Virus record (IMG/VR): IMGVR_UViG_3300029288_000071
Span: 32,001 to 96,000 of that record
DNA: 64,000 nt
Source: a virus
Taxonomy: Duplodnaviria > Caudoviricetes
Strand: one strand, 5' to 3'
Part shown: piece by piece, positions 25,169 through 42,625 of the stretch
How positions within the stretch are numbered: position 1 is the first letter of the stretch
How the letters are laid out: each line of letters opens with the position of its first letter
Program-made: the position numbers and the translations under genes
Notes under the pieces: model-generated
Told to the model about the DNA's origin: nothing
Database searches by the model: none
The model's input: the letters and a program-made list of their open reading frames with translations, nothing else

Positions 25169-25577
25169 TCAAATCACATTTCAAAGGATAATTTTGAATC
25201 AAAGACATAAAATCTGATTTACTATTTTTTGAAACTATAATTTTACTTACATGTTCTTGAAATGTATAAGGGGGTTCAAGAATTTCATATTGTCTATTTT
25301 CTTGATCTGATTTTTTCTTTAATATTTTAGTTTCTGATCTCATTTTTGTCTCATTTTTTAACTATTTCTACTTCTGCCCAAGCAACAAGATGGACCCATT
25401 CATTTTTCATATTTTTACAAAGTGAATACATTCCATCTATATGATAAAAATCTAATATTTCATCTTCTTCAATTTCAGGAGCAGCTGGAGGAATTTTTCT
25501 ACAATTTCTTTTTCCACTTGCTAATTGTTTACATACTTTAATTCTTGTATTTCTTGGAACATTATAAAGTTTCATAG

Positions 25578-25651
25578 TATTCCCGAGCGGATTCGAACCG
25601 CTACAACACAATTTAGGAAATTGTGACTCTGTCCAATTGAGCTACGGGAAT
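25578..25651 (-). tRNA. tRNA-Arg(CCT)
   Basis: Cloverleaf, anticodon arm ACAAT-TTCCTAA-ATTGT. Confidence 0.85.
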
Positions 25652-25770
25652 ATAAACTGGTTCTCGTAGGAAGAACCAGTAAGCCCTTTTACCAATATAA
25701 ATTCCTCGTGTTCATTTGATTTGTGTCCTCCTTTCTAAAATGAATAAAATTGTAGAAATTAAGGGTAAAG

Positions 25771-25833
25771 CTTGATTTATGTTTTATCGGTAGTACCGCA
25801 ATCCTACTTTAAAAAGCAAAAGTAGATTTGTCA
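25771..25833 (-). ncRNA. unnamed structured RNA motif A, copy 3
   Basis: GACAAAUCUAC...GUAGGAUUGCGGUACUACCGAUAAAACAUAAAUC. Confidence 0.6.
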
Positions 25834-25862
25834 TTAATGAGGCTAATCAGGCCATCATTAAG

Positions 25863-25936
25863 TAGCCCAGATGGGATTCGAACCCATAGATTTCTGATTC
25901 TAAGTCAGATAGATATGCCAGTTCTCGTACTGGGCC
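25863..25936 (-). tRNA. tRNA-Leu(TAG), short variable loop
   Basis: TCTGA-CTTAGAA-TCAGA. Confidence 0.8.
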
Positions 25937-26139
25937 GTTATGTTTCTTTCTTCATACAATTACAAGGTGAAAATCTTTTACATTTACAATTTTCGCAACT
26001 ATAAGTTGGAAATTTCCCTTTTTCAACTCTATTTCTGAGTCTCTTAAGGCCTTTATAATCTTTTTTTACTGCTACTATTCCCATCCAAACTGGATTTGTT
26101 TGATTTTCTTCCATATTCTTCCTGTTAATAAATATCTTT

Positions 26140-26406
26140 TAATTTAACCAAGTGTACCCTAGATTCTGTTTTATTCTATCATCTGTCTTGTGGCCGCTAC
26201 CCGTATTATTTGCTTAAGAAAAGTGCCAAGCTAATACTGTTTGCGTTGCATACATGCTAAGTAGTATAAGCGAGTCTAGCATTCTCGGGTTAACTGCCCC
26301 AGCGCTATAAGTCAAGACTCTCCTACCCTTTCCTTTATATGTCTAGAGGTTCCTCTCATCTTTCTGAACTAGTCGAAAGGTAGAGCGATAGATCCTTCAG
26401 TTAAAA
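26140..26406 (-). ncRNA. rnpB: RNase P RNA (compact)
   Basis: GAGGAACCUCUAGA pairs with ACAGAAUCUAGGGUA (P4); GCAACGCAAACAG, CGGGUAGCGGC, AGACAGAUGAUAGA/UCUAUC (P2). Confidence 0.8.
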
Positions 26407-27071
26407 GTATTTTTTATAATTTCGTCTGCTTCAGATTCAGGAAAACCAGCTTCATTAATCAAAATATTTCTTAATCGAGATTTATAATCTTCAATAGCTT
26501 TCTTTAAAGTTGATCTAAGTATTTTATTGATTTCTTTAAGTTTTTCAAAATCGTCTTTAAGTTTTTCTGATTCTTTGTCTTTAATAGGTTGAAATAAATC
26601 ATTCCAGTCTTTTTCGGCGGTATCATCATAGGGTTTTTCAATTCCTTTAACCCATTTATACCATTTATTTTTATCATCTCCATAATGGGGAATTTCCCAA
26701 TAATTTGTTGGTTTAGCCATTATTTCTCCTTTTCAAATACATAAAAGCTTTTTGTCAATGGAAAATTTTCAAATCTTCTAAAAGTAAGTGAATATCTTCC
26801 TACTAATTTAAGTTTTTCTCCTGTTTCTTCCATTAAGCTACCAACACCATAAGTGATGAACTTTCTTGATTCTAAATTTTTATTATAATTCTTTTGACTT
26901 ATATACTTTGTTGTGTCTTTTTCTGCTATTGCTATTAAATATAACTGAACATCTTTTTTTAATAAGTCGTCATGAATTACTTCTATATCAAGAATTTTTG
27001 CACTTTTTGGCATTTTTATGATTTGTACATGATCTATTGCAAAAGGAAATTTCATTAAATATTTTGACATT

Positions 27072-27746
27072 TTATTCATTCTGAGCATTTAACCATTCTT
27101 GGGTAGGTTCTTCTTTTAATTGAAAATGAATGAGGCACAATTGATTTCTACCTTGAAATTTAGTAGGATCACCTGTTATTTTTTCAAGCCAAATATTTAA
27201 TGAATAATTATCTGAAAGATACCAAGTAACTTTTCTTCCTTTTCCTTTTTCAGCTAAAGTATAAACTGAATTTGGATTAGTATATGTTAGCCAAACAAGA
27301 GCTTGATGAGTAAAATCTCCTGTAGTTCCTATAGTATCAACTTTATGTTGAGTTAAAGTATCTCCAATAGCTACATAATTTTCTTTAGTTATGATCCATA
27401 AAGTAGAATCAGCAGTTTTGACAAGAATTCTGAATAATGCTTGTCTTTTGTCTCCTCTTCCTACAATAGTATCTACTTGAAAATCTATATGTGATACAGT
27501 ATCAGTACTAGTTGGATATATTATAGGTTTGTAAAGCCATAAAACTCTTCTATTCATATACATGTTAATAACTGTATCTTTGAGATTGTTTTCTCTTACA
27601 AATAGATAAGTTAAATTAGCTTTTTGTTGTGTCCATTCCCATCTATTGTTATTGGGAATTTTTATAAATTGACTTTGAACTATAGTAGAAAATACTATAA
27701 TTAAAGAGACTAAAAGCAATAATTTGCGCATAATACATCCTTTCAT
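27072..27746 (-). CDS. secreted hypothetical protein
   Basis: Signal peptide MRKLLLLVSLIIVFS; start uncertain. Confidence 0.6.
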   Translation of the reverse strand: MKGCIMRKLLLLVSLIIVFSTIVQSQFIKIPNNNRWEWTQQKANLTYLFVRENNLKDTVINMYMNRRVLWLYKPIIYPTSTDTVSHIDFQVDTIVGRGDKRQALFRILVKTADSTLWIITKENYVAIGDTLTQHKVDTIGTTGDFTHQALVWLTYTNPNSVYTLAEKGKGRKVTWYLSDNYSLNIWLEKITGDPTKFQGRNQLCLIHFQLKEEPTQEWLNAQNE

Positions 27747-27761
27747 AAAATTGAAAAATAA

Positions 27762-27987
27762 ATCAGCAGAACCAAACAAAATTATAACAATAAAGAGTTT
27801 TATCTAAATAAGTTTTAACGTCAGGCAATCTTGCGACGCCCTAATAACAATTAAGTATTTAGTTGTAACTGCATGAGCTTTGATTTTTTCATTTTCATCA
27901 ATCTCTATCTATATCTTATGCACGGACGATAAATTAGCCAAAGGCTAAATGCTCAGTATTTATTATAAAATTGCCGATCCTGCTGAT
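27762..27987 (-). ncRNA. putative ~225-nt ncRNA closed by a 12-bp terminal stem
   Basis: AUCAGCAGGAUC/GGUUCUGCUGAU encloses a non-coding gap. Confidence 0.45.
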
Positions 27988-28013
27988 CAGGCACTGAGGA
28001 GTTTGAGTCCCTC

Positions 28014-28487
28014 TTATAACCATTCATCAGGAATTGTTACATTCTTTTTAGCATTATAGCTATCAATAAGATCTTGAAGTTCAGCTATTCTTTTTGTGGC
28101 TTCTTTTTCAAATTGATCAACAGCTTCTTGTTTAAGAAATGCTTCATATTCTTCTTTGATTATTTCAGTTCTTGAATATGGATCTCTTTGAAGAAAGTCT
28201 CCATCTCTTGTTGGAAGGGTTTTAACTTGAGCTAAAAGCCCTCTTGCTTCTTGCATTTCATAAATCTGTGCAATGATATCAAAATTTGCTTGAGAAATTA
28301 AGGTTTTTGCTTTTGCAATTCTGCTCACAACATCTTTAATGTTAGCAAAAACTTCTCCTCTATCAACTTTTGAAGTTGAAGTTTTCAATCTTGAATTTTC
28401 TCTATGCAAAATTGCAATTAGAGTTTTGTATTCATTTGTGAATCGTGATTTAATCTTTAACAATCTTGCTAATGATACTTCTGCCAT
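28014..28487 (-). CDS. DIP1984-like coiled-coil protein
   Basis: SLARLLK, ISQAN, LQDLIDSYNAK pattern. Confidence 0.6.
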   Translation of the reverse strand: MAEVSLARLLKIKSRFTNEYKTLIAILHRENSRLKTSTSKVDRGEVFANIKDVVSRIAKAKTLISQANFDIIAQIYEMQEARGLLAQVKTLPTRDGDFLQRDPYSRTEIIKEEYEAFLKQEAVDQFEKEATKRIAELQDLIDSYNAKKNVTIPDEWL

Positions 28488-28766
28488 AAGGCCTCCAATT
28501 TTATTCTATACATTCTTGAAATGATTTTAAGTTTTGTGTTTTCATATCATCGTCTTTTATTTGTCGATGTTCATTAGATTGATTAAGTAATTCAATAAGA
28601 TTTTCTAATAGCTTTTTATAAAGCTCTCTAGTTGGATCATTACCTGGAGTATGTAAAAATTGATAGAGATAATTTGCATAAGCATAAGCATTATCACCTC
28701 TAATGAATATGCCTGTCCAATCATCTTTAAATTTCATAGGACCTGTTTCAGCTCTCATATTTTTCT

Positions 28767-29300
28767 CTAATTTTTCTTTTCTTTATATCTACAAATATGA
28801 TCAGCAGCATAACTTGCAGCTGGTGAATCTGGTTTTACATTACATTCAAAACCCATTGCATTAACATAACCTACTGCTTCAGCTAAGTATTTGTTTGATT
28901 CCCATTCTTTTTTCTTATTAAAATCTAATTGAGGATCTATTTTCTTAACATTTGAAATGTTTTCTATTCCTGCAGCTTTAAGTAATTGAGTAATTTCTAC
29001 TAGTCTATAAGCTTCAGTCATAAGTCTCCCATGAGTACCACCACCATACATTGTTACTTTTTCTTTTTTACTTCTTCTATAAACAATATGAGCTCCATGA
29101 CTTACTCCATCTATCCATTTCCACAAACAAATTACTTCACTAAAAACTGCTTTACCCCTGAATAAACCATGAGGAATACTATCAACTCCAATCATTATAA
29201 TGAATTTTGCACTTGCATTTTGGCTCAAATATGCTTTAATATATTCTCTAACATCAGCAATTTTTGTGCCGTCCCATTTCCGAAACTCATCATAAATCAT
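28767..29300 (-). CDS. RNase H-like YkuK (DUF458) family protein
   Basis: IGVDS, RLMTEA, LDFN, KPDSPAASYAADH. Confidence 0.8.
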   Translation of the reverse strand: MIYDEFRKWDGTKIADVREYIKAYLSQNASAKFIIMIGVDSIPHGLFRGKAVFSEVICLWKWIDGVSHGAHIVYRRSKKEKVTMYGGGTHGRLMTEAYRLVEITQLLKAAGIENISNVKKIDPQLDFNKKKEWESNKYLAEAVGYVNAMGFECNVKPDSPAASYAADHICRYKEKKN

Positions 29301-29573
29301 TGTCTTCCTTAATTTAATTGTTGTTTGATTTTATTCTGACTTCATAAAATGAAGATTTTGTATGTTGTAATTTTTTTAAAGCTTGTTCTCTACTTTTTTC
29401 TGTTTGATAAGAGCTATGTTTATGCCATTCATTATCTCTTTTAGACCAACACCATTTTCTTATCCATTTACATTCAATAATAAATGGTTTTTTAATTTTT
29501 TTCTTTTTAGTTGGTTCTAATATTTCTTTTTCTTGAAGATTCTTTTTTTTCAATATGGGTTGCATAATATAAT

Positions 29574-29933
29574 TTAATCTTTATCAGATAAATGTAAACC
29601 TTTTGCTTGAAAAATTTCAAAAGGAATATTAAAATCTTCACAAACTAATCTAATTCTTTCAATGCCAATAGGATTCCAAGAAATACAATATACTTTTTGA
29701 GGTAATTCATTCTTAAGTATTATATATCTTTGTAGCAAAATTGAACCATCAGATTCTATTGAACCTAAATCATGATCTAAGTATATGATTGAATATGAAT
29801 TTTTCTTTATAAGTGAGATAGCTTCTTCAAATGAAGTAGCTATATGCATTGTAGATGAGTCAAGTCCATACCATTCAGGTTTTTTATTATCATCAACAAA
29901 TAAAATATTACTCAAGTTGTTTAATCTCTTCAA
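29574..29933 (-). CDS. cyclic-phosphate-processing receiver domain protein
   Basis: LFVDD, YLDHDLG, SWNPIG. Confidence 0.75.
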   Translation of the reverse strand: MKRLNNLSNILFVDDNKKPEWYGLDSSTMHIATSFEEAISLIKKNSYSIIYLDHDLGSIESDGSILLQRYIILKNELPQKVYCISWNPIGIERIRLVCEDFNIPFEIFQAKGLHLSDKD

Positions 29934-30164
29934 TAGGTTTTATGTCTTCAAAAATTGCTAATTTAATTTCTTGTGCGAAAATCCACGTATTTGGTTGGTC
30001 ATTTTGTTTTAGAATAACTTCACAATCTAGAAATTTTTTATAGAAATTAATTCCTGATTTTATTCTTTCTTCAGTACCTTCTATAGGAACTTTAGCAATT
30101 AGCAGAAAACGTCTATCGTCTATAGAAGCAGTTTCAAATATTGGGAAATATTGTATTTTCATAG

Positions 30165-30251
30165 TAGCCCAGGAGGGACTTGAACCCTCACGCCCTCTAA
30201 CGAGCATCAGATTTTAAGTCTGATATGTTCTTCCAATTTCATCACTGGGCC
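30165..30251 (-). tRNA. tRNA-Leu(TAA)
   Basis: Type II cloverleaf. Confidence 0.88.
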
Positions 30252-30259
30252 ATTTACAG

Positions 30260-30344
30260 CGGAAGATATGCGAGTTGAACGCATTCTCGATTTCCCGAGG
30301 CCTTGGTTTAGCAAACCAGCCGATTACCGTTATCGTCATCTTCC
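30260..30344 (-). tRNA. tRNA-Ser(GCT)
   Basis: Type II cloverleaf, G73. Confidence 0.85.
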
Positions 30345-30484
30345 ATTGCCTTGTTCAAAGTACAAGGCTAAACTTGGAAAGTAGACTGAACTATAAAGCA
30401 AGTTCTGTCCCCGCCGCCACTTGATTTTTAAGAAAATCAAGAAAAAGACTATAAGTCAGTCTCTACAAAGAGAAGACTGGGGAT

Positions 30485-31675
30485 TTATTTTACTTTATAA
30501 AGTAACATTGTTCCACGAACAAGAATTCTGTTCAAAGATGTTGACTTAATAAATATCCTGTAATTCATATGATTTCCAGGTTTTACTTTGCATACTGTAG
30601 TCGAAGGCATCTGTAGAACTTGTCTTGCTTGATCACCACCATAAATCTTTCCATTTGATTTGTCCATGATCAAAATTTCTTTGTAATCTTGAACTTTTTC
30701 AGGCTTTGTTAGTTCATAAAAACCATTGCCTTTTACAAAATTCAAACCTTCTGATTCTACAAAATCTTTGATAGAACATTCTTTCATGACTTGTAATTTC
30801 TTGAATTGATTATTCATGACATCTAAATTAGCTTGAATAGCTGATTTAGATACTTTTGACATATCAGTTGTGAAGAAAGATTTTGTAGATGTTTGACCCA
30901 AACTTCTTGCATGGAAATAACTAGAAGTTCCAATATTAGCAGCAACTGATAAATTTTGGATTCCTATTTTTGTTTGATCCCATTCAGTAATATTTCCAGC
31001 TGGTACTCCAAAAAAAGATTGAATATAATGAGAATCACCTCTAGGAACACTAAATACAAAACTCCATCTATCAGTTCCTTGTTTATCTCTGATTTTCTTT
31101 GCAATATTTGCTGCATTACTGATTCGTGAACTGTTTTCTTGTCCATCAGTTATTGTGATGAGAAGAAAACTTATATCTTCTGTATTATGTGAAGCTTGAT
31201 GATCTAATTCTATAAGTGCAGTATCTACTGCATCAATTAAAGCTGTACCACCATTTGGTTCATAATCATTAGCTTTAATTGGGTGTATCATTCTTGATTC
31301 TATATCTTTACAGATCCACTCAAAACCAGTAGAAAATTTTCCGATTGAAATGAATGTTTGCTGGTTGAGTTTGTATGCTTCATTTCTAATTGTGTCAATT
31401 TGAGAATTTAAAACATTTATTGCATCATATCTGAGACCTTGCATTGAACCTGAAGCATCAATTAATAGAGCAATTCTATTAATTAGAGGTTTTGTTATTT
31501 GAGGTGCATTTTGTTGTGCAACTGATTGAGTAACTGTTTTTTTAGCTGGAATTCTATCTAGACAGCGTTTACAAGTTACTTTTGAATTTGTTTTTGTTAC
31601 GTTTGTTGTGTATTGCGTTTGACCACAAATGGGATAGCCATCTGAGTCAGATTTGTGCCATTTGAGTTGTGACAT
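30485..31675 (-). CDS. VWA domain protein
   Basis: LIDASGSM, GGTALIDA, ITDGQENSS. Confidence 0.85.
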   Translation of the reverse strand: MSQLKWHKSDSDGYPICGQTQYTTNVTKTNSKVTCKRCLDRIPAKKTVTQSVAQQNAPQITKPLINRIALLIDASGSMQGLRYDAINVLNSQIDTIRNEAYKLNQQTFISIGKFSTGFEWICKDIESRMIHPIKANDYEPNGGTALIDAVDTALIELDHQASHNTEDISFLLITITDGQENSSRISNAANIAKKIRDKQGTDRWSFVFSVPRGDSHYIQSFFGVPAGNITEWDQTKIGIQNLSVAANIGTSSYFHARSLGQTSTKSFFTTDMSKVSKSAIQANLDVMNNQFKKLQVMKECSIKDFVESEGLNFVKGNGFYELTKPEKVQDYKEILIMDKSNGKIYGGDQARQVLQMPSTTVCKVKPGNHMNYRIFIKSTSLNRILVRGTMLLYKVK

Positions 31676-31729
31676 AAGAGGAGCCCTTCTATTAGTTATT
31701 AGTTACTATTTAATTAATTATGTTTAAAG

Positions 31730-31817
31730 TAGCCTACCAGGGACTTGAACCCTGAATTGTTTCTGTGTATGCCATAGCTTTTGAGGCTATCGTCTTTGCC
31801 AGTTTGACTAGTAGGCC
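31730..31817 (-). tRNA. tRNA-Leu(CAA)
   Basis: ATAGC-CTCAAAA-GCTAT. Confidence 0.82.
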
Positions 31818-31826
31818 ATTATTTTT

Positions 31827-31901
31827 TGGGTGAAAGACGGGAGTCGAACCCGCTAGCAATTGGTTCACAGCCAACCCTCGCACCGTTTGAGTTCAATCAC
31901 C
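31827..31901 (-). tRNA. tRNA-His(GTG)
   Basis: G-1 and encoded CCA. Confidence 0.8.
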
Positions 31902-32265
31902 ATGTGTATCATAACCTATTTTTTGCATTAATATTGCAATTTCAGTTTTATAATTTTTTGAACGAACAATTAAAGAATAATATTTAGCAATATATTGACT
32001 TCCAACAACAGTTGGATGTACAGGAGTCCATTGTCTTGTTTCAGGTCTAAAAGCTAAATCACAATCATAAATTATTTCAAAATCTTTTAACTTTCGATAA
32101 TTTTCAGGAATATCAATATAATCATTATATTTGAGAATCATTTTCATTAAAATATTCCGGTGTCCTACCTTTAGACGAAGAAAAAACCAGCTATAAATAC
32201 TTATTATATACTTATACTTTAATGGTAAATTCTGTAAGATTCGGACTTACATTACCGGTTTTTAG

Positions 32266-32337
32266 AGTCGGATATCAGATTTGCACTGATGTATTAGGTT
32301 TTGCAGACCTATGCCTAAGCTACTCGACCAATCCGAC
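32266..32337 (-). tRNA. tRNA-Cys(GCA)
   Basis: Cloverleaf, U73. Confidence 0.8.
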
Positions 32338-32648
32338 ATTTCTGGCTATTAGCGGCCAGCTGCGCTGAGTAATTTTATTTATGAAAAATCAATATCATTA
32401 AATTCTTCTAAATTTTTTAAAATATTTTTTGTAATTTTAAAAGTCCACCAGCAACCTAATACAATAGCTGCTAAAGTAAAAATTTTAGATGTTTTTTTCA
32501 TTCTTTTATTTCTTCTAATTTTCCTCTACAATAAGGGCATTTATATAAAAATCTTGAAGGATCTGAAATACTTGGAAATTTTAATCGCTGAGTTTCCCAA
32601 ATTTTCTTTTTACAATCTTCACATTGATATCGTTTTTCTTTTTCCATG

Positions 32649-32722
32649 TGCCCGTTGTAGGTGTCGAACCCACTGTCTCTTCGGTGTAGACGAAGCGCTT
32701 TATCCGGATAAGCTAAACAGGC
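32649..32722 (-). tRNA. tRNA-Val(TAC)
   Basis: CTTCG-TCTACAC-CGAAG. Confidence 0.82.
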
Positions 32723-33285
32723 AATTTAGGAACAATATAAATTACACCAACATTATCTCCTTCAGACTCATTGTTATACCAATATTCAAAATTTTCTCCG
32801 TAAATTTGGTTAACTAATTTTTCTATACTTTCCCATTTATAAACAAAATCATAAAAAGTATCAAATTTAAGTTTAGGGTTGTTTGGATTGTAAAAATCAT
32901 GTATTACAATAATTGGTTTAACTTTACAGTGTTCTGCTATTATTTCTAATTCTTTTGAAGTTGGAGTATCATAATAACCATGTGCATCTAAGAAAAACAA
33001 ACATCTATCTTTTATTTCATCTAAAAGTTTTGGAAGTATTTTTCTTGAATCTCCTAAGAAAAAATTAATATTTGAAATTTTGCTACAATTAATTTTTGCT
33101 TGATCAAAATGTTTTTGTTCTACTTCTATTCCATAAACTTGTTTAAAGTTCTCTGATAACCAGGTTGATGTACATCCTATATGAGAACCTGTTTCAATAG
33201 CAGTATCAATATTGAATTGATCTCTCAATTTAATAATCATTTTTGCAACAAATCTATCACCACTAAAATAATCTACTTCATTCAT
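32713..33285 (-). CDS. class I SAM-dependent methyltransferase-like protein
   Basis: IETGSHIG, GDS, FFLDAH, IVIHDF. Confidence 0.75.
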   Translation of the reverse strand: MNEVDYFSGDRFVAKMIIKLRDQFNIDTAIETGSHIGCTSTWLSENFKQVYGIEVEQKHFDQAKINCSKISNINFFLGDSRKILPKLLDEIKDRCLFFLDAHGYYDTPTSKELEIIAEHCKVKPIIVIHDFYNPNNPKLKFDTFYDFVYKWESIEKLVNQIYGENFEYWYNNESEGDNVGVIYIVPKLPV

Positions 33286-33334
33286 AATAATAAATATAAA
33301 ATATTAAGTATTAAATGTAAACAAAAATTTTTTG

Positions 33335-34389: not shown

Positions 34390-34396
34390 GTTATTG

Positions 34397-34770: not shown

Positions 34771-34775
34771 GTTAG

Positions 34776-34848: not shown

Positions 34849-35269
34849 GTTTATAGATATTTCTTAATTAAATATTTCTTATTTATTTTAAATTTTTTCA
34901 ATGTAGAATCTGGAACATCCCAAGGATATTCTAAAACTGGATATTTTTTTATACACATTACGATTTTACCACATTTGGGACATTTATGCTCATATCGAGC
35001 TAATTCTGCATCTGTTTTTTCCCATCCTGTATATTCTACAATACCTTTTTTACATTTTTCACATATCCAATCATGTGAAAACATTTTGAATAAAGAATAT
35101 TTATGCATTTTATTATTTTTCTTGTTTGTTATTTTTTATTTCAAGTTCAGCTTTTAATTTTCTATTTTCAACAAGCAAATCTCTAACTTGTTGAGCATAA
35201 TCAGCTCGAAGTTTCAGTTCTGCTTTAAGCTTTTCAATTTCTTCTTTGAGTTCAATAAAAGTCATTTTG

Positions 35270-35346
35270 TCCGCTCAGTTGGAGTTGAACCAACGTGTGA
35301 CCGTCTACCCTTTCAACGGCTTATCAGACCGAGGGGATATGAGCGG
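35270..35346 (-). tRNA. rearranged tRNA-like gene, Ile(GAT) anticodon
   Basis: Perfect acceptor and T arms; anticodon hairpin sits 5' of the GG-containing loop. Confidence 0.55.
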
Positions 35347-36208
35347 GTTTTTCAAGTTGTAAGCTGGATTGTTGTTTTATTTTTTATCAAATCAACAAGT
35401 TTATTTAATCTTTTCTGTTCTTTCTTTAATTCTGGCATTAATTTCATATTATGTCGTTTGTAAGATGCAAATGCTGTAGAAAGCCAGCTAATATCACTTT
35501 CATCATCAACTAATCTTGTTAAGACTTTAAGCTGTGATAACTCATTTAATGTAACTACTTCGCTATCTGAACAACCCCAACAAAAAGTATCACTACAACT
35601 TAATGTTAAGACAGGATTACTGTCATAGTAAATTGTTTTATCTTCTCTTTTAGCATTCCAATCAGATTCTTTTTTGCTTTTTACAATATGAATAAATAAT
35701 CCGTGATTTTTGAAAAATTCTAAAACTTCTTTTTCTTCATCTTTTAAAGAATTATACCATAATTCTAAAATAGCAGCTCTAGTTGTGATATCAGAATAAC
35801 ATGCATTCCAACCATCTTCCCATTTAGTTCTTTCTTTTGAAGATACTTCTTTACCTTTTTCATCAACTGTTGATGTTTTAGCTGGATATATTCCTGTTGT
35901 ATCTAAAACTTCTTCTAAAAAATTCATACATCATATCCTATCTTTTGCATTAATAATTCTATTTTCAAATCTTCATCTTTAATATCATTGATAGAAACTC
36001 TTTTTTGAGTTGCTGTTATTACACTTTGTTGAGTTCTTTGAATCTGCTTCACATATTTTTCTACGTATTTCGATAATTCCCTTGGTTTGAGATGACCAAC
36101 ATCTATATAATAGATTTTGCGCGAAGAATCAATTTTATGTTCATATAATTTGTTTTTATAAACTCCAGGAGTTTGAATTCCATTTAACATAAAAATTTTC
36201 CTTTTTTG

Positions 36209-36281
36209 TGGTGACTCTCGGTACCGCCCCGAGTTCTACGGTTCTTCAGACCGTCGCAATGGCTTCACCTGCTCAGTCACC
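36209..36281 (-). tRNA. tRNA-Phe(GAA), GGCGGUA T-loop
   Basis: ACGGT-CTGAAGA-ACCGT. Confidence 0.8.
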
Positions 36282-36878
36282 GTTTTTACTAAAACCATCT
36301 ACTGTATATCCTAATTTATACATTAAGTTTGTACAAGGATCTTCTAATAACTTATTTAATTTCTCTTGTTTTATAAAAATAGCTTCTCGTCTTATTTGTT
36401 CAGATTTTTGTTCAAAGAATATAGCAATTTCATCTTTATTTATACGATTATTTTTATAACCATTTAATGATACTGACCAATTTAATTCATAATTATCTGA
36501 AAAAGTGCATATAAACTTCAAATCTTCTAGATCACTTGAAAAACTAATAATTCTCCATTCAAATTTCAAGTTTGGAAATTCAGCTTTCATCATTTCTAAA
36601 ATTGATTTTTCAAAAATGGGCCAATCACAAAAATCATTAACATTTTTTGCATCATTCCAATATTTAGAAACAGTTTTTTCTTGTTGTCTTGTTAACCAAG
36701 CAATATGTGCTTTATCTTTTTTCATAACCCATCTTATACATTAACTGTTGTATAGGGTCAATTTCTTCAACAACTTCAACTTCTTCTCCAAGATAATATG
36801 GTTTTTTTAAAGAATTAAAAAAAATTGTTGGTTCAGTGCATTTTTTTAAATAATCATTGTATGTCATCTGTATCATAG

Positions 36879-36952
36879 TCGGTGTAGCTGGATTTGAACC
36901 AGCGATTTCTTGGTCCCAGGCCAAGCGGATTTCCGGGCTTTCCTATACACCG
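36879..36952 (-). tRNA. tRNA-Pro(TGG)
   Basis: C1-G72 cloverleaf. Confidence 0.85.
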
Positions 36953-37173
36953 TTTTTCTTCAAAAATTCAATTACATAATCATAATCTGTATGGGGTAAA
37001 TTACATTCACTACAATCTTTATTCCCATCTTCTGTCATAGAAAAATTACCACCGCAATTATAATAATCATACAAGGGACAGTAGCAGAACATGCAATTAA
37101 GTTGTGTAATTCCTTCATGACAAGGATAATATTCACATTCTGTATTACAAAAAAATCTTTTACTATTTTTCAT
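36943..37173 (-). CDS. cysteine-rich small domain protein
   Basis: FFCNTECEYYPCH...NCMFCYCPLY...CGG...DCSECNLPH. Confidence 0.75.
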   Translation of the reverse strand: MKNSKRFFCNTECEYYPCHEGITQLNCMFCYCPLYDYYNCGGNFSMTEDGNKDCSECNLPHTDYDYVIEFLKKNGV

Positions 37174-37175
37174 AG

Positions 37176-37246
37176 TAGCGCATAAGAGTGCCGCCCTCTT
37201 GTTTCCAGCTTGAGAAACTGGTATCTTTCTGTTCGATCAATGCGCC
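37176..37246 (-). tRNA. tRNA-Glu(CTC), GGCGGCA T-loop
   Basis: CCAGT-TTCTCAA-GCTGG. Confidence 0.75.
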
Positions 37247-37252
37247 AATTTG

Positions 37253-37441
37253 TTATAAGATAGTATTACCTTCTTTGATAATTTTTGAAATTTTATTTTT
37301 CAGATAATTGTTTTTGAAACGATATTTTTTTAAAATTCTACGTTCATGGTGATTTAGTCTATTACCTTTTCCCTTACCAATATAAAAAGGTATAGTTGGT
37401 GTTTTAGATGAACAAAGTTCATATGTATAATATTCATTCAT
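37253..37441 (-). pseudogene. truncated GIY-YIG-like endonuclease
   Basis: YYTYEL...PFYIGKGKGNRLNHH, ends at 62 aa. Confidence 0.55.
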
Positions 37442-37445
37442 TTTG

Positions 37446-37521
37446 TACTCCTAGAGAGATTCGAACTCTCATGATAACTTGTTTAGAAGACAAGTGACTT
37501 ATCCAATTAGTCCATAGGAGC
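37446..37521 (-). tRNA. tRNA-Arg(TCT)
   Basis: CTTGT-CTTCTAA-ACAAG. Confidence 0.87.
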
Positions 37522-37854
37522 ATTTAATAACCAATTCTCTTCATTAAAACTTCAATTGGATTGATAGTTATCTTATTATCTGTTTTAATGTGAAATTTAT
37601 TTATAAAATCCATATAATCAAATTTATCAGAACTATTTCGCAATTCATCAAGTCTTACATTTTCTACTTTAACTTGACCTTGATGTCCGTATCTATCTTT
37701 CGTCACATAGCATCTAATTTGAAGAATATGATCATTAGTTAGAGGTTGATATACATCTTGAATATCACCTACAAATGTAGCATATTCTATTTCTCTCTGA
37801 TCAAGTTTTTCTTGAACATGCCAGCATTCATGTATCTTCATCAGTTTCATTTTG

Positions 37855-37929
37855 TACCGTGTATGGGAGTCGAACCCATAATCTCCATCCTTGAAAGGGA
37901 GGTGTGCTTGGCCATTCCACTAACACGGC
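37855..37929 (-). tRNA. tRNA-Glu(TTC)
   Basis: Bulged anticodon stem, loop CTTTCAA. Confidence 0.78.
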
Positions 37930-38212
37930 ATAAATAAATTACTTAATGTGTTTAAACAATATTGATATTTTTTCTTTATCATTACTCTTTCCAACTACTT
38001 TATCGAAAAGTCTTCCTAAAACGCCTGGACGAGAAACAACAATAGTCATATTTTCAGCTAGATTTGTTCCTTGTAAATTAGTAATAAATTTTTCATCAAT
38101 TAAATTTGATAATATTATTTCTTTAACTAGATTTGCAAATCTAGTTAAATCTTCAGCATTGTAAATATATTCTGTTGTTACCATTTGTTCATTCCTTTTA
38201 TAATTGTTTTTG

Positions 38213-38298
38213 TCGGAGTGGAGAGATTCGAACTCTCAAGTTCAGTAATGACCGTGGTTCCAAGCCACGAGGGCTCCCAGCTACCCGCCTACACTCCG
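38213..38298 (-). tRNA. tRNA-Pro(TGG) with long variable arm
   Basis: CGTGG-CTTGGAA-CCACG plus extra arm. Confidence 0.75.
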
Positions 38299-38308
38299 AA
38301 TATTTTTG

Positions 38309-38383
38309 TGCTTCTATTGGGATTTGAACCCAAAGTCTTACGCATTAAAAGTGCGATGATTTAGCCAGTTAATCTATAGAAGC
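38309..38383 (-). tRNA. tRNA-Lys(TTT)
   Basis: CGCA-CTTTTAA-TGCG. Confidence 0.82.
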
Positions 38384-39091
38384 ATTTTTATAACCCATTT
38401 TCTTCATCAATATTCTTATAGGATCGGTTTCAATTTTAGATTTTATTTTTTTATTTTTATTTTCAGGATGATAATCAGGATGATATTTATGTGCTCTTAT
38501 CATTCCATCCCAAAAACCATCATTAACATAATCACGCCATTGCTGTTTAGTCATTGTGCTTCTTCACATCAAATTTTACTGTAAAATAACCACTAATAAA
38601 AGAACCTAAAACTGCTGGAATTAACATCCATTTGTTTTCAACATAACTTAAAATAACTCCTGCTCCCATTAACCAGAGTATTGCTCCAAAAATTGCTGAA
38701 CTAAGAGCTTTACCTTGAGCAGTTCTTCTCATCCATAATACCCAAAGAAATTCTGCAGTAGCAGTTAAAGTAAAAGCGATTATTGATTGTAAGATCCAAT
38801 TCATTTTTGAATAGCCTCAATTTGATCTGCAGTTGCTTCTAGTGAAATTTTTAGTTCAGGTCTAGCAGTATTAAAATAATGATTTCCAATTTGATGAAAA
38901 TTTGGATTACATTGTACATTCCATTGCAATAATCGAATATTTATCATTCTCCAAGCCATTAGATCTCTGAAAAAATCTCCAGTAAATTCTAAAGTTCCGA
39001 TTATAATTAGATCTTTTTCTTTATCAATGATAACATCAAATTCATCAGATTCAGCTTCATTAGTCATAAAATCATCTTTCTTATTTTTTTG

Positions 39092-39174
39092 CGGAGGATG
39101 AGGGACTTGAACCCCCACAACCCGAAGGTACTGGTTTTCAGGACCAGGGCGATACCGTTACGCTTTAATCCTCC
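39092..39174 (-). tRNA. tRNA-Ser(TGA)
   Basis: Type II, G73. Confidence 0.83.
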
Positions 39175-39869
39175 AAATTCTTATCAATCCCATCCATGAC
39201 ACCCACAATAAAATTCATCAAATTCTAAGCCGCCAACACAAGGTTCAAATTGCTTTCCATTATGTTCACATAAAGATTCCATTTTCTTTTTACTATTTTC
39301 GTAATAACCAGTTCCACCTTGAGATGGATGAGCATCAGCAAAATAGAAACAATTTTTACATTTAGATTCATATTTAGAACCTGGGCCTCTATATTCAAAA
39401 AATGCTAAATTTGGTGATGAATCTCTTTCACAAGTGCAAGTTGAACCACATTTTGAACATTCAGACTTATGAGTTTGTTTTCCATAAAAACCGCAGCGAG
39501 CCTTTCTGTTTTTAAGCAATTCTTCTACATTGTGTTCTGTATCAATTTCAAAACAAGAACAAATAACACAAGCAGGTTTGTTATTACTGATAGAATTAGC
39601 AATATGTCCGCATTTCATTAAAGGTTTATTCATATCCCATTTTTCTCATTAATGTAACTATTTCTGCTCCACCATGTCGTCTAATTTGATATGCTTCATG
39701 TAAAGCTTTGTAATTTTGTTGAACAGCAAATGTTGCTAAAGGATTTCCACAACAATGAACATTTAAAATACTTGATTTATATCTGTTTTTATAATTTCTT
39801 TTCCACCAAGCTTGTTCTTTATTCTGTTCTTTTTTCCATTGTTGTATGTCATAATTTATCATAAAGTAG

Positions 39870-39944
39870 TACCGATGTAGGGAGTTGAACCCTATATTTT
39901 TATAGATTATGATTCTATTGCACCAACCGTTATGCGCCATCGGC
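39870..39944 (-). tRNA. tRNA-Met(CAT), elongator or Ile2
   Basis: ATAGA-ATCATAA-TCTAT. Confidence 0.75.
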
Positions 39945-39953
39945 ATTTATTTG

Positions 39954-40025
39954 AGCCGAATACCTGAATCGAACAGGTGACTGAGCTTTACAGGAGCCCC
40001 ATTTTTCCGATTAAACTAATCCGGC
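39954..40025 (-). tRNA. tRNA-Thr(TGT)
   Basis: Cloverleaf. Confidence 0.83.
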
Positions 40026-40339
40026 AAAAATTATCTTTGTGTACCACATCTTTTACATTTACTTCCAAAGAATCCAAAAAAATGACCTCCATTATATTTT
40101 TTGTATTCATTTCCATCTTCCATTTTCTGATAACTAATCCAGCTTAAGTTTTTCTTTACAATAGCCATTTATAAAATGATTTCTTAAAAATAATTGAACA
40201 TTCCAAGCAACAGATTTATATAAACATTCTTTACATAAAAAATAATGATTCCCATTTTCATCAAATTCTTGAATCCAGTCAGGATCTTTTTGAAAATATC
40301 CCATTTTTATCATTAATATTTCTACTTCAGATTTCATTG

Positions 40340-40410
40340 AGCTCTATCTCGGTTACGCTCCGAATTTTGATCCTTACCAAAGATCTGTTCTGCTATTAAA
40401 CTAATAGAGC
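40340..40410 (-). tRNA. tRNA-Thr(GGT), AGCGUAA T-loop
   Basis: GATCT-TTGGTAA-GGATC. Confidence 0.75.
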
Positions 40411-40414
40411 ATTG

Positions 40415-40488
40415 TGCTCATTAAAGGATTTAAACCTTTGGTCTCTGTCTTGTTAGGGCAGCGCTTTCATCAGCTAAGCTAAATGAGC
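40415..40488 (-). tRNA. tRNA-Val(AAC)
   Basis: Loop CTAACAA. Confidence 0.75.
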
Positions 40489-40492
40489 AGTT

Positions 40493-40568
40493 TGGAGCGG
40501 GAAACGGGGCTTAAACCCGTGACCTCATGCTTGGCAAGCACGTGTTCTATCAACTGAACTATTCCCGC
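40493..40568 (-). tRNA. tRNA-Gly(GCC)
   Basis: GCGGGAA acceptor, encoded CCA. Confidence 0.88.
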
Positions 40569-40838
40569 AATAAATTTTTACAACAACTCCAGAAGTAATT
40601 TTACTGCTACTATCAATAAAGCATCCAGGTTCAACTTCATAACCCATTTTTTTCATCATTTCATTAATCTTGAATTCTTCACTAGTAAGATTTTTTATAT
40701 ACCAAACTGATTGATTCTTACTAATAGTTTCAAATTCATGTTCTTTAAAATTTGCTGAAGTATCTTCCATGGCTTAATCTAAAACATTTAATTGATTTTG
40801 TAAATAAAAATCTGGTGCATCTACTGAGAGTCGAACTG

Positions 40839-40910
40839 TGGATCCAAAAGGTACCGCCCCTTTTTCTGTAGTTTAAGAGACTACTGCATCACTGTTAATG
40901 CTTTGGATCC
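40839..40910 (-). tRNA. tRNA-Lys(CTT), GGCGGUA T-loop
   Basis: GTAGT-CTCTTAA-ACTAC. Confidence 0.8.
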
Positions 40911-40946
40911 TTTTTGCTTCATTTAAACAGTCTCTAATTTTTTAAG

Positions 40947-41029
40947 TGCGTATGGAAGGATTCGAACCTCCAATGTCCCTAAGGAGTCTGCTCTACAGGC
41001 AGGTGGGCCACCAGTTGCCCAACATACGC
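40947..41029 (-). tRNA. tRNA-Tyr(GTA)
   Basis: Type II cloverleaf. Confidence 0.83.
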
Positions 41030-41112
41030 ATATATGTCCACAATCTGATTTTGTTTCGTCATCATACCATTTAATTTGATCACATATTTCACATCTTATT
41101 AATTTTATCATG

Positions 41113-41192
41113 TGATCTCGAGGCGATTCGAACGCCTAATTGCAGCTCCAATTACGATTACTAGTTTCGAAGACTAGCTCGGCTACGAGACC
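41113..41192 (-). tRNA. rearranged tRNA-like gene, Arg(TCG) anticodon
   Basis: Same architecture as 35270-35346. Confidence 0.55.
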
Positions 41193-41196
41193 AAAG

Positions 41197-41280
41197 TGGC
41201 AGAGATGAGACTTTAACTCATATTGCTCAAGACTTATCTAGAAAGTTACTTAAGTGTTTTTTCTGTTAAACTACCCTGCA
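41197..41280 (-). pseudogene. degenerate tRNA-like sequence
   Basis: Acceptor, D and T remnants; disrupted anticodon arm. Confidence 0.4.
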
Positions 41281-41475
41281 TTTTAATAAATGGTTGCTTT
41301 AACATCATCAAAAGATGATCAAAAGTTATATGAGAAAAAGACATCCAACTATTTGATTTATCAAACGCAATACCATAAATTTTTCTTTTTGGAATTGAAC
41401 AAATTCCAGTACTTCTTAATAGATGCATTCCTAAAAGTTTGCTTATTGAGAATTTCTCTTTTTCTTTTTTCATAG

Positions 41476-41549
41476 TACACTCAAAGGGATTTGAACCCTT
41501 AACCACCAGTTTCGTAGACTGATGCTCTATCCAGTTGAGCTATGAGTGC
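41476..41549 (-). tRNA. tRNA-Arg(ACG)
   Basis: Canonical cloverleaf. Confidence 0.9.
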
Positions 41550-41550
41550 G

Positions 41551-41622
41551 CTGCTAAAAAAGGATTTGAACCTTTGACTCTTCTTTCAGAGAGAAGTGTT
41601 TTACCAATTAGACTATTTAGCA
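41551..41622 (-). tRNA. tRNA-Gln(CTG)
   Basis: U1-A72, CTTCT-CTCTGAA-AGAAG. Confidence 0.83.
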
Positions 41623-41915
41623 ATTTTTTCTTTATAACCCATTTGATTCATGATATTTTTTATCTGTTGATCTGTTTCATATTCTTCAGAAAAAGTTATT
41701 GAATCAGGAGATACCCAAATAACATGACCAATTTTAAAATATGAATCTCTGTGTTTTTGTATAAGTTCAATGAGAATTTTTTGTTTTTGAAGGATATTAT
41801 TCTTTCGATAATCACGAACTTCTAAAATTTTCCAAAGACCAATTTCATCTCCTGAGTTACTAGGAATGTCATTAACAGTAGCACCAACATGTAATTGTTC
41901 ATATTTCATAACTTG

Positions 41916-41988
41916 CGGTACTGAAGGGAGTCGAACCCTCTCCGATCTCCGTGACAGGGAGCCATCTTAGCCGTTTGACCTCAATACC
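41916..41988 (-). tRNA. tRNA-Asp(GTC)
   Basis: Loop CTGTCAC, G73. Confidence 0.83.
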
Positions 41989-42552
41989 ATTTTAAATTTG
42001 ATAACCCATTTTTAACATTAATCTATTTATATCGTCACTTTTTATTTTTTCTTCTTCAATAAAATATTTTGCCCAATCTGATAGTTGATGAGAATCTTTA
42101 TCTTCATCAATTAATTCTATTTCTTTTTTATTACTATGATCTTTATATCCTGTTCTACCTTTCCAAACTTTATAGAATTTTCCTTTAATGAAACTTGGAT
42201 GATTTTCTGTATCCATAGTCAATGTTTTTGTACAATAAAATAATTTATCTTTCATCATATCCTATTTTTTTCATTAAAACTTTTGTATATAAATCAATAT
42301 CATCAGTTTTCAATAATGTGAAACAATTCCATTCAAAACAACAATAAGGAAATTCTTTTATTTCAACAAGCTTATCAGCATAAATTCGCTGAATAGTATA
42401 AGTTTCTCCAATTTTTATTATTTTATGTATTTCTGTGATTATGCTATAACAAAACTTATTTTCTGTACAAACAACTGTATCTCCTTCTTTATAAGGAATT
42501 TTTAGATTAGCAAATTTGATTCTGAATGTTAATTTATCATCATTCATAGAAG

Positions 42553-42625
42553 AGCTCTTACTCGGAGTCGAACCGAGAATCTATCTTTACGAAAGATAAA
42601 GTTTGGCCAATTAACTTATAAGAGC
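42553..42625 (-). tRNA. tRNA-Thr(CGT)
   Basis: TATCT-TTCGTAA-AGATA. Confidence 0.83.

What the first reader, a model, noticed from the sequence alone, without database searches (positions are those of the whole stretch)
25351..42625. tRNA punctuation: ORFs start 1-6 nt after tRNA 3' ends
Seen: discriminator-CT-ATG at 25575, 30162, 34684, 36876, 37173, 41473; CA-ATG at 40337; C-ATG at 32647 and 41111; 3-6 nt gaps at 33821, 35265, 37441, 37850, 41909, 42547. There is no room for a Shine-Dalgarno site and CCA is not encoded. Inference: tRNA 3' cleavage releases near-leaderless mRNAs and RNase P cleavage at the next tRNA defines the 3' end, as in mitochondrial punctuation, coupling accessory protein synthesis (including several LMxKxGY proteins) to tRNA maturation.
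Basis: partly seen in the sequence, partly recalled or inferred. Interest (0 to 1): 0.72.

Follow-up and report, generated by a model that had tools for sequence, protein, structure and literature searches.

The report
Phage genes flush against tRNA genes
In the tRNA gene array of an uncultured 207-kb phage, 16 small protein genes start 1-7 bases after a tRNA ends, with no ribosome-binding site, so they are probably translated from RNA ends made when the tRNA is cut out, though no RNA data exist to show it.

Summary
Observation confirmed. The window lies in a 207-kb, 29% GC jumbo myovirus record; the DNA is held in full by a landfill metagenome run. About 39 tRNA or tRNA-like genes lie on the minus strand at 25578-46998. 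Sixteen ATG ORFs (49-108 aa) start 1-7 nt after a discriminator base, most often as N73-C-T-ATG (7 cases). This is far above chance (P about 2e-13). Gaps are bimodal: 1-7 nt without SD, or 18-68 nt, two of which I read and found SD-like motifs. CCA is encoded once in 27 tRNAs, but C74 in all 27.

The abutment persists in related contigs even where a different ORF follows the same tRNA. It recurs in an unrelated 595-kb phage (LR756511.1) and in at least 40 junctions in IMG/VR loci. T5 keeps 14-37 nt spacers and encodes CCA.

Interpretation partly supported. Cleavage at the discriminator giving near-leaderless mRNAs is the most economical mechanism, but it is inferred: no RNA data exist.

Three caveats:
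- Most genes of this phage lack an SD anyway.
- The genome is compact everywhere.
- Eleven of 21 upstream ORFs stop inside the next tRNA, four using U8-A9-G10 as TAG. RNase P cleavage therefore cannot be the designed mRNA 3' end.

Other first-stage notes on this genome recorded the LMxKxGY tag, not this architecture.

The parts
25578..46998 (-). tRNA array: 27 ARAGORN tRNAs plus about 12 further tRNA or tRNA-like genes, interleaved with about 40 small ORFs, all on the minus strand. From 42625 down to 34397 no gap between listed features exceeds about 70 nt.
25351..25651 (-). tRNA-Arg(cct) 25578-25651, then N73-CT-ATG, ORF 25351-25575 (74 aa)
29908..30251 (-). tRNA-Leu(taa) 30165-30251, then N73-CT-ATG, ORF 29908-30162 (84 aa). 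The relative L139 keeps the same CT-ATG but with an extra 60-aa ORF first.
32498..32722 (-). tRNA-Val(tac) 32649-32722, then N73-C-ATG, ORF 32498-32647 (49 aa, zinc-ribbon-like)
33642..33900 (-). tRNA-Ile(tat) 33825-33900, then N73-CCT-ATG, ORF 33642-33821 (59 aa)
34448..34770 (-). tRNA-Leu(aag) 34687-34770, then N73-CT-ATG, ORF 34448-34684 (78 aa). Its stop lies at positions 19-21 of the next tRNA-Gln(ttg).
35113..35346 (-). tRNA-like element 35269-35346 (fold only), then 3-4 nt, ATG, ORF 35113-35265 (50 aa, coiled-coil-like)
36712..36952 (-). tRNA-Pro(tgg) 36879-36952, then N73-CT-ATG, ORF 36712-36876 (54 aa, LMYKMGY tag)
36943..37247 (-). Non-canonical tRNA-Glu(ctc)-like 37176-37247, then CT-ATG, ORF 36943-37173 (76 aa, Pfam PF04071 zf-like, E 3e-19, match from residue 6). 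Its TAG stop is U8-A9-G10 of tRNA-Pro.
37253..37521 (-). tRNA-Arg(tct) 37446-37521, then N73-CAAA-ATG, ORF 37253-37441 (62 aa, GIY-YIG fragment). This is the only junction with an SD-like AGGAG, inside the acceptor stem.
37524..37929 (-). tRNA 37855-37929, then N73-CAAA-ATG, ORF 37524-37850 (108 aa, LMKRIGY tag). The junction is kept in homologues L020 (80% identity) and L021 (59%).
39626..39944 (-). tRNA-Met-like 39870-39944 (Rfam 45.5 bits), then 7 nt, ATG, ORF 39626-39862 (78 aa, LMRKMGY tag).
40134..40410 (-). tRNA-Thr(ggt) 40340-40410, then N73-CA-ATG, ORF 40134-40337 (67 aa, tag near the N terminus)
40923..41206 (-). Doubtful junction: weak tRNA-Arg(tcg)? 41115-41206, then C-ATG, ORF 40923-41111. 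Only 27 codons lie before it reads through the whole tRNA-Tyr.
41246..41549 (-). tRNA-Arg(acg) 41476-41549, then N73-CT-ATG, ORF 41246-41473 (75 aa). It ends 35 nt inside the weak tRNA-like element 41197-41280.
41613..41988 (-). tRNA-Asp 41916-41988, then N73-CAAGTT-ATG, ORF 41613-41909 (98 aa, IMNQMGY tag). Its TAG stop is U8-A9-G10 of tRNA-Gln(ctg). The whole ORF is absent in relative L148, where tRNA-Asp and tRNA-Gln are 2 nt apart.
42245..42625 (-). tRNA-Thr(cgt) 42553-42625, then N73-CTTCT-ATG, ORF 42245-42547 (100 aa, LMKKIGY tag). Relative L148 has CG-ATG after the same tRNA.
37939..38298 (-). Contrast case: tRNA-Pro(tgg) 38213-38298, then a 28-nt spacer with AAAGGAA, then ORF 37939-38184. 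In relative L020 the same tRNA is followed by AAT-ATG and a different ORF.
47832..48263 (-). Phage-encoded tmRNA directly upstream of the array. It may be relevant if RNase P cuts create non-stop messages.

Best explanation
The region is a compact tRNA-plus-ORF array of a jumbo phage, probably transcribed polycistronically. Small, exchangeable accessory genes are packed flush against CCA-less tRNA genes.

The first ORF after a tRNA starts 1-7 nt after the discriminator, most often N73-C-U-AUG, and has no Shine-Dalgarno site. The most likely mechanism is as follows. Host tRNA 3' maturation (an RNase Z-type cut at the discriminator, then CCA addition) frees a 5'-monophosphate RNA whose AUG lies 0-6 nt from the new end. 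This RNA is translated in a leaderless-like, 5'-end-dependent way. Further ORFs in each inter-tRNA segment follow by overlapping stop/start coupling.

The 3' side is not punctuated in the mitochondrial sense. In half of the junctions the stop codon lies within the first 6-44 nt of the next tRNA, so termination there must precede or compete with folding and RNase P cleavage of that tRNA.

Shown: the architecture, its statistics, its conservation and its recurrence. Inferred: co-transcription, the cleavage site and the mode of initiation.
For: - Sixteen abutting junctions, P = 2e-13.
- Gaps are bimodal, 1-7 nt or 18 nt and more. Of the long spacers I read two, and both carry SD-like motifs.
- In 11 of 16 the abutting ATG is the first possible start after the in-frame stop.
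- The ORFs look real. One is PF04071 at E 3e-19, aligned from residue 6. dN/dS is 0.25-0.75 against relatives. The ORFs are not paralogues of each other.
- 26 of 27 tRNAs lack CCA. CCA-less tRNAs are cut immediately after the discriminator by RNase Z (PMC8549757).
- The same tRNA keeps an abutting ATG with different ORFs in relatives. tRNA-Leu(taa) has CT-ATG in both the window and L139, with an indel running from ATG to ATG. tRNA-Arg, tRNA-Pro and tRNA-Thr(cgt) behave likewise.
- The same CT-ATG architecture occurs in the unrelated 595-kb phage LR756511.1: 6 of 8 junctions, and the two long spacers carry SD-like motifs.
- At least 40 true junctions were found in IMG/VR loci. Other junctions in those loci are bimodal.
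- Outside this window, abutment occurs after CCA-less tRNAs in 22 of 90 junctions and after CCA-encoding tRNAs in 1 of 20.
- T5, with encoded CCA and an SD-using host, keeps 14-37 nt.
- No sigma-70-like promoter enrichment and no convincing minus-strand terminator lie inside the array.
Against: - There are no RNA data at all; 5' ends, cleavage sites and translation are unobserved.
- Tight spacing is the norm in this genome: 152 of 274 ORF-ORF junctions are 7 nt or less.
- Only 25-48% of other genes have an SD-like motif. Compaction plus generic SD-independent initiation therefore predicts the same spacing pattern.
- Eleven of 21 ORFs upstream of tRNAs stop inside the tRNA, which shows that at least some translation uses RNA still joined to a tRNA.
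- The host is unknown, so whether it has RNase Z, and where that enzyme would cut after a C74, is unknown.
- The phage encodes no RNase Z and no CCA-adding enzyme.
- A 2-nt leader with a 5'-monophosphate is not a classical leaderless mRNA. From memory, extra 5' nucleotides lower leaderless translation in E. coli.
Confidence: 0.5

Rival explanations
1. Compaction only. Deletion bias in a densely packed phage genome has removed every dispensable spacer. The ORFs are translated by the same SD-independent initiation as most genes of this phage, on unprocessed or partly processed precursors, for example while the tRNA is transiently unfolded. There is no functional link to tRNA maturation.
For: - 55% of ORF-ORF junctions are 7 nt or less, and 105 of them overlap.
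- SD-like motifs are present in only 25-48% of other genes.
- ORFs read 6-44 nt into downstream tRNAs, so ribosomes evidently translate RNA joined to tRNA sequence.
- T5 annotation also shows CDS overlapping tRNA 5' ends.
Against: - A folded tRNA ending 2-3 nt before the AUG leaves no single-stranded RNA for the 30S platform side (inference from ribosome geometry, not tested).
- The upstream 20 nt are 50% GC against 20-25% for other genes.
- Outside this window abutment is nearly confined to CCA-less tRNAs.
- The recurring CT spacer (7 of 16 here; 8 of 23 elsewhere) suggests more than random shrinkage.
Confidence: 0.3
2. Most inter-tRNA ORFs are weakly expressed or unexpressed passengers: remnants of mobile cassettes and homing-endonuclease debris. 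Their abutting ATGs are then not functional start sites.
For: - ORF content between the same tRNAs differs between relatives.
- A GIY-YIG fragment and an HNH gene lie in the array.
- Most ORFs have no family match.
- One junction (41111) is clearly doubtful.
Against: - ORFs of 49-108 codons in 29% GC DNA stay open across whole spacers.
- PF04071 matches at E 3e-19.
- dN/dS is below 1 in all comparisons.
- Seven of the abutting ORFs carry the tag, six of them at the C terminus, with synonymous codon variation.
Confidence: 0.1
3. The Shine-Dalgarno site is hidden inside the 3' strand of the tRNA acceptor or T stem and is used on unprocessed RNA.
For: AGGAG lies 7 nt upstream of ATG 37441, in the acceptor stem of tRNA-Arg(tct). 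GGGAG lies at the same place in L021.
Against: Only 1 of 15 abutting ORFs reaches -5 kcal/mol against the anti-SD, which is the random level. The site would also be base-paired in the tRNA.
Confidence: 0.05

Closest known systems
Mitochondrial tRNA punctuation (Ojala, Montoya, Attardi 1981; summarised in PMC8601606)
   Same: Protein genes are butted against tRNA genes with 0-7 nt between them on one strand. There is no ribosome-binding leader, so tRNA excision would leave leaderless or near-leaderless mRNAs.
   Different: Half of the ORFs here end inside the next tRNA. At the one overlap junction read by hand there is no partial U/UA stop to be completed by polyadenylation. Several ORFs lie between two tRNAs, joined by overlapping stop/start. 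Bacterial ribosomes and host enzymes are involved, and processing has not been observed.
tRNA gene region of phage T5 (AY543070)
   Same: One-strand array of tRNA genes interleaved with small ORFs and homing-endonuclease genes. Some CDS overlap tRNA 5' ends.
   Different: T5 encodes CCA on 22 of 23 tRNAs and keeps 14-37 nt between tRNA and the next ATG. Its annotation also lists many promoters inside the region. Here CCA is absent and 16 spacers are 1-7 nt.
Leaderless mRNAs of bacteria (for example mycobacteria, Shell et al. 2015, cited in PMC8244752; lambda cI, from memory)
   Same: AUG start, no SD, and a start codon at or within a few nt of the presumed 5' end.
   Different: Known leaderless mRNAs mostly start at a transcription start site with a 5'-triphosphate. 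Here the end would be made by RNA processing, would carry a monophosphate, and would usually sit 2 nt upstream of the AUG.
t-elements of plant mitochondria and bacterial tRNA-mRNA co-transcripts such as the tufB operon (from memory, not checked here)
   Same: tRNA or tRNA-like structures cut by RNase P or RNase Z define the ends of neighbouring mRNAs.
   Different: Those mRNAs keep normal leaders. Systematic abutment of start codons to tRNA 3' ends is not a described feature.

Membership tests
Mitochondrial-type tRNA punctuation | mRNA coding regions directly flanked by tRNA genes on one strand with almost no spacer | tested here: met
   tRNA-to-ATG gaps are 1-7 nt at 16 junctions. Stop-to-tRNA gaps range from -44 to +9 nt at 20 junctions, leaving out the doubtful 41111 ORF (-107).
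Mitochondrial-type tRNA punctuation | Excision of tRNAs by RNase P and RNase Z produces the mature mRNA ends | not testable with these tools
   No RNA run holds the sequence, and the host is unknown. No phage RNase Z, CCA-adding enzyme or Rfam RNase P RNA was found.
Mitochondrial-type tRNA punctuation | ORFs end at or before the tRNA 5' end; incomplete stops are completed after cleavage | tested here: not met
   Eleven of 21 ORFs stop inside the next tRNA, four at U8-A9-G10 read as TAG. At the tRNA-Gln(ctg) junction, read by hand, the RNase P cut would leave ...AU, which added A's would not turn into an in-frame stop. The other overlap junctions were not read this way.
Leaderless / near-leaderless mRNA | No Shine-Dalgarno site and a canonical AUG start | tested here: met
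   All 16 starts are ATG. The SD-like motif rate is 7% against 9% at random positions.
Leaderless / near-leaderless mRNA | RNA 5' end within about 0-5 nt of the start codon | not testable with these tools
   Needs 5'-end mapping. This rests only on the known RNase Z cut site (PMC8549757).
T5-type phage tRNA region | tRNA genes interleaved with small ORFs and homing endonucleases on one strand | tested here: met
T5-type phage tRNA region | CCA encoded and SD-sized spacers (13 nt or more) before downstream ORFs | tested here: not met
   CCA is encoded in 1 of 27 tRNAs. Sixteen spacers are 1-7 nt; T5 has 14-37 nt.

The most novel reading that the evidence does not exclude
Some phage tRNA arrays are truly punctuated operons. 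Host RNase Z cleavage at CCA-less phage tRNAs creates 5'-monophosphate C-U-AUG messages that ribosomes translate from the end. Each tRNA 3' end then acts as a portable, SD-free expression socket for exchangeable accessory-gene cassettes. RNase P cuts at the next tRNA turn half of these messages into non-stop RNAs, and the phage's own tmRNA, encoded directly upstream, clears the stalled ribosomes.
Probability: 0.15. Interest if true: 0.85.

Novelty: new variant of a known kind. Interest (0 to 1): 0.62.

Why it matters
If the abutting ORFs are translated from ends made by tRNA 3' processing, this would be a bacterial-virus counterpart of mitochondrial tRNA punctuation. It would also be a natural case of processing-generated leaderless translation.

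Accessory-gene expression would then depend on host tRNA-maturation capacity rather than on promoters or Shine-Dalgarno sites.

It would matter for annotation too. The gene record held for this genome starts one of these ORFs three codons late: 105 aa instead of 108.

It would also explain how tRNA arrays act as hot spots where small genes are swapped between related phages. The same architecture in an unrelated 595-kb phage and in dozens of IMG/VR contigs suggests a general rule rather than a curiosity.

Tried and rejected
- RNA evidence: no RNA holder was listed for window:34000-43000. The three DNA runs that were laid gave only short, noisy contig pieces of related strains and unrelated tRNAs, unusable for junction comparison.
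- Close relatives: megablast against phages found none. DnaE homologues are at most 34% identical. The 634-aa protein, the methyltransferase and the RNase H-like protein found no IMG/VR relatives. ORF98 (41613-41909) has no homologue but itself.
- L002, the only IMG/VR relative (vWA protein 39% identical), has a tRNA array with no abutment, gaps of 14-42 nt and some SD-like motifs. CCA is encoded in 10 of 27 tRNAs; 9 have C74 only.
- Tandem duplication of a tRNA+ORF cassette as the source of the repeated CT-ATG was rejected. The post-tRNA ORFs share only the short tag.
- LMxKxGY as a nucleic-acid signal (promoter or processing site) upstream of tRNAs was rejected. It occurs genome-wide, mostly away from tRNAs, with synonymous variation at Leu, Lys, Gly and Tyr codons.
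- The phage tmRNA tag does not resemble LMxKxGY. My reading of the frame is AEQKSAFTFEDALAFVSQNEFALA.
- No phage RNase Z or CCA-adding enzyme was found.
- Sigma-70-type promoters are not enriched (82 against 97.5 expected), and no convincing minus-strand terminators lie in the array.
- Literature searches for tRNA punctuation with bacteriophage, leaderless with RNase Z and phage, and the tag peptide found nothing on this architecture.
- The host could not be inferred from tRNA similarity.

Full report
**Context**

The window is bases 32001-96000 of a 207,030-bp IMG/VR virus record, 91% complete by CheckV. A landfill metagenome run holds the tested stretch in full and may be its source. GC content is about 29%. 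Of ORFs of 100 aa or more, 196 of 202 lie on the minus strand. PHROGs identify a DnaE-type polymerase, a tail sheath, a portal, an SbcC-like nuclease and an NAD ligase, so this is a jumbo myovirus. No close relative exists in the phage or IMG/VR collections; the best DnaE identity is 30-34%.

**The observation**

ARAGORN finds 27 tRNA genes, all on the minus strand, between 25577 and 46998, and none elsewhere in the genome. Rfam, a lowered ARAGORN threshold and folding add about 12 more tRNA or tRNA-like genes.

Counted from the discriminator, the gaps are:
- 2 nt (CT) at 25575, 30162, 34684, 36876, 37173 and 41473
- 2 nt (CA) at 40337
- 1 nt (C) at 32647 and 41111
- 3-6 nt at 33821, 35265, 37441, 37850, 41909 and 42547

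Two junctions rest on weak tRNA calls. The element at 37176-37247 is supported only by its fold and by a near-identical copy in a relative. The junction at 41111 has only a low-threshold tRNA upstream, and its ORF runs through tRNA-Tyr, so I count it as doubtful.

CCA is encoded once (tRNA-Gly-gcc), but all 27 tRNAs have C at position 74.

**Is it more than chance?**

On the coding strand, 3.7% of positions have an ATG opening 49 codons or more within 1-7 nt downstream. Sixteen of 39 tRNAs therefore gives P = 2e-13, and seven exact 2-nt gaps give P = 2e-9.

The gap distribution is bimodal: sixteen at 1-7 nt, none at 8-17, then 18, 25, 28, 47, 49, 54 and 68 nt. Two of the long spacers, read directly, carry SD-like motifs: AAAGGAA before 38184 and AGAAGGG before 31675.

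A stricter null weakens part of the argument. This genome is compact everywhere: 105 of 274 ORF-ORF junctions overlap and 47 more have 0-7 nt. SD-like motifs occur in only 25-30% of tightly joined genes and 40-48% of spaced ones, against 9% at random positions. The abutting post-tRNA ORFs have 7%. So the absence of an SD is real but is not peculiar to these genes.

**Are the ORFs real, and are the starts right?**

- In 11 of 16 the abutting ATG is the first ATG, GTG or TTG after the in-frame stop.
- ORF 36943-37173 matches Pfam PF04071 (cysteine-rich small domain) at E 3e-19 from residue 6, which fixes its start at the abutting ATG.
- ORF 37253-37441 is a GIY-YIG fragment.
- The sixteen proteins are not paralogues; only the short C-terminal tag is shared. 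The repeated CT-ATG is therefore not a duplicated cassette.
- Against homologues in other metagenome contigs, dN/dS is 0.25 (ORF84) and 0.44-0.75 (ORF108).

**Relatives**

Four short contigs carry homologues: three from JGI sample 3300037067 (L020, L139, L148) and one Logan contig (L021). An ENA contig (L140) repeats the ORF84 homologue of L139 but holds no tRNA.

- The tRNA before ORF108 keeps its junction: CAAA-ATG in the window and L021, CTAAA-ATG in L020.
- tRNA-Leu(taa) is followed by CT-ATG in both the window and L139. In L139 that ATG opens an extra 60-aa ORF, and the homologue of ORF84 follows by an ATGA overlap. The indel runs exactly from one ATG to the next.
- tRNA-Pro is followed by AAT-ATG and a different ORF in L020, but by a 28-nt SD spacer in the window.
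- tRNA-Arg is followed by TAAT-ATG and a membrane protein in L021, but by CAAA-ATG and the GIY-YIG fragment in the window.
- L148 lacks ORF98 altogether; there tRNA-Asp and tRNA-Gln are 2 nt apart.

The ORFs thus behave as exchangeable cassettes. The tRNAs are the conserved anchors, and whichever ORF comes first tends to sit flush against the tRNA.

**Other phages**

- T5 (CCA encoded on 22 of 23 tRNAs) has gaps of 14-37 nt and no abutment.
- L002, PA5oct and three huge-phage arrays also have none.
- The unrelated 595-kb phage LR756511.1 has six of eight junctions at 2-4 nt, four of them CT-ATG, and its two long spacers carry SD-like motifs.
Forty hits are true tRNA-to-ORF junctions.
- The other junctions in those loci are again bimodal: 17 at 0-7 nt, 3 at 8-12 and 54 at 13-60.
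- Outside this window, abutment follows CCA-less tRNAs in 22 of 90 junctions and CCA-encoding tRNAs in 1 of 20. CT is the commonest spacer.

This sample is biased by how it was drawn and is not a survey.

**The 3' side**

Of 21 ORF-to-tRNA junctions, 10 end 1-9 nt before the tRNA and 11 have the stop codon inside it. Four use the conserved U8-A9-G10 as TAG: before tRNA-Ala, Gln(ctg), Pro and Val(tac). The same happens in L021.

An RNase P cut would strip these ORFs of their stop. At the one junction I read by hand (tRNA-Gln-ctg, from the sequence), the cut would leave no partial stop that added A's could complete. The mitochondrial rule therefore does not hold on this side. There, termination must happen before the next tRNA is cut, or the messages become non-stop.

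The phage encodes a tmRNA directly upstream of the array (47832-48263, 71.5 bits). Whether this is connected is speculation.

**Mechanism**

Two things are established knowledge. CCA-less tRNAs are matured by an RNase Z cut immediately after the discriminator (PMC8549757). The ribosome needs single-stranded RNA 5' of the start codon unless the start is at the very end of the RNA.

The tRNAs here cover nearly all amino acids and look functional, so they must be excised. A folded acceptor stem ending 2-3 nt before the AUG should block internal initiation.

The most economical reading is that the translated species is the cut RNA, with 0-6 nt before the AUG. I put it at about 0.5, against 0.3 for pure compaction with SD-independent initiation on precursors.

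Co-transcription is also inferred. It rests on the absence of spacers, of promoter enrichment and of minus-strand terminators.

**Comparison with the known, and novelty**

tRNA punctuation is known from mitochondria. tRNA arrays with interleaved ORFs are known from T5. Leaderless translation is known in bacteria. Systematic abutment of start codons to CCA-less tRNA 3' ends in phage arrays, with a preferred C-U spacer and a bimodal gap distribution, was not found in the searchable literature. I rate it a new variant of a known kind.

Other first-stage notes on this genome recorded the LMxKxGY tag, not this architecture.

Noticed in passing
genome-wide; in the window e.g. 31893-32147, 33413-33640, 35924-36190, 36273-36725, 38369-38554, 41992-42258, 49279 (all minus strand): About 30 otherwise unrelated small ORFs end with (D)PIxxLMxK(M/I)GY, 0-10 residues before the stop. 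A few carry it internally or near the N terminus, and one carries it twice. Synonymous codons vary, so selection acts on the peptide. Thirteen lie in the tRNA array. The peptide LMKKIGY gave no literature hit.
   Followed up: partly
window 47832-48263 (-): Phage-encoded tmRNA (Rfam RF00023, 71.5 bits), missed by ARAGORN, directly upstream of the tRNA array. My reading of the tag frame is a 24-residue peptide ending in FALA.
   Followed up: partly
window 33335-33408, 34397-34468, 36209-36281, 37176-37247, 40839-40910 (-); also a match at 4028-4036 (-): A subclass of tRNA or tRNA-like genes has the T-loop GGCGGYA in place of TTCRANY. The motif GGGCGGYAC occurs 7 times against 0.5 expected. ARAGORN misses these at its default threshold. 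The same loop is kept in relatives L020 and L021.
   Followed up: partly
all 27 ARAGORN tRNAs of the window; also L141-L144 and the IMG/VR loci L023-L138: C74 is encoded without C75-A76 in 26 of 27 tRNAs here, and in 298 of 402 tRNAs of the scanned IMG/VR loci. A partial CCA seems to be the usual state of CCA-less phage tRNA genes.
   Followed up: partly
window 45062-45071, 41613-41622, 36943-36952, 32713-32722 (-); L021 around 197-206: The conserved tRNA nucleotides U8-A9-G10 serve as the TAG stop codon of the upstream ORF in four junctions here and one in a relative.
   Followed up: yes
L139:249-435 against window 30165-30160: An indel of one whole 60-aa ORF between relatives runs exactly from the tRNA-abutting ATG to the ATG of the next ORF, so the first ORF after the tRNA is replaced without changing the junction.
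   Followed up: yes
L141 (LR756511.1:415806-455896), tRNAs at 18377-21500: An unrelated 595-kb uncultured phage has the same N73-CT-ATG architecture at six of eight tRNA-to-ORF junctions. Its two long spacers carry SD-like motifs.
   Followed up: partly
window 26050-26450: A 282-nt stretch without ORFs (26115-26396) was read by another first-stage note as a minimal RNase P RNA. It has no Rfam match even at E up to 10.
   Followed up: partly
L148:256-300: In a relative, the ATG abutting tRNA-Thr(cgt) opens only 7 codons, and the homologue of ORF 42245-42547 continues in another frame after an A-run. This is either a frameshift or an assembly error in a low-coverage contig.
   Followed up: no
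window 37253-37441 (-) and 45062-45703 (-): A truncated GIY-YIG endonuclease fragment and an HNH endonuclease gene lie inside the tRNA array, as in the T5 tRNA region.
   Followed up: partly
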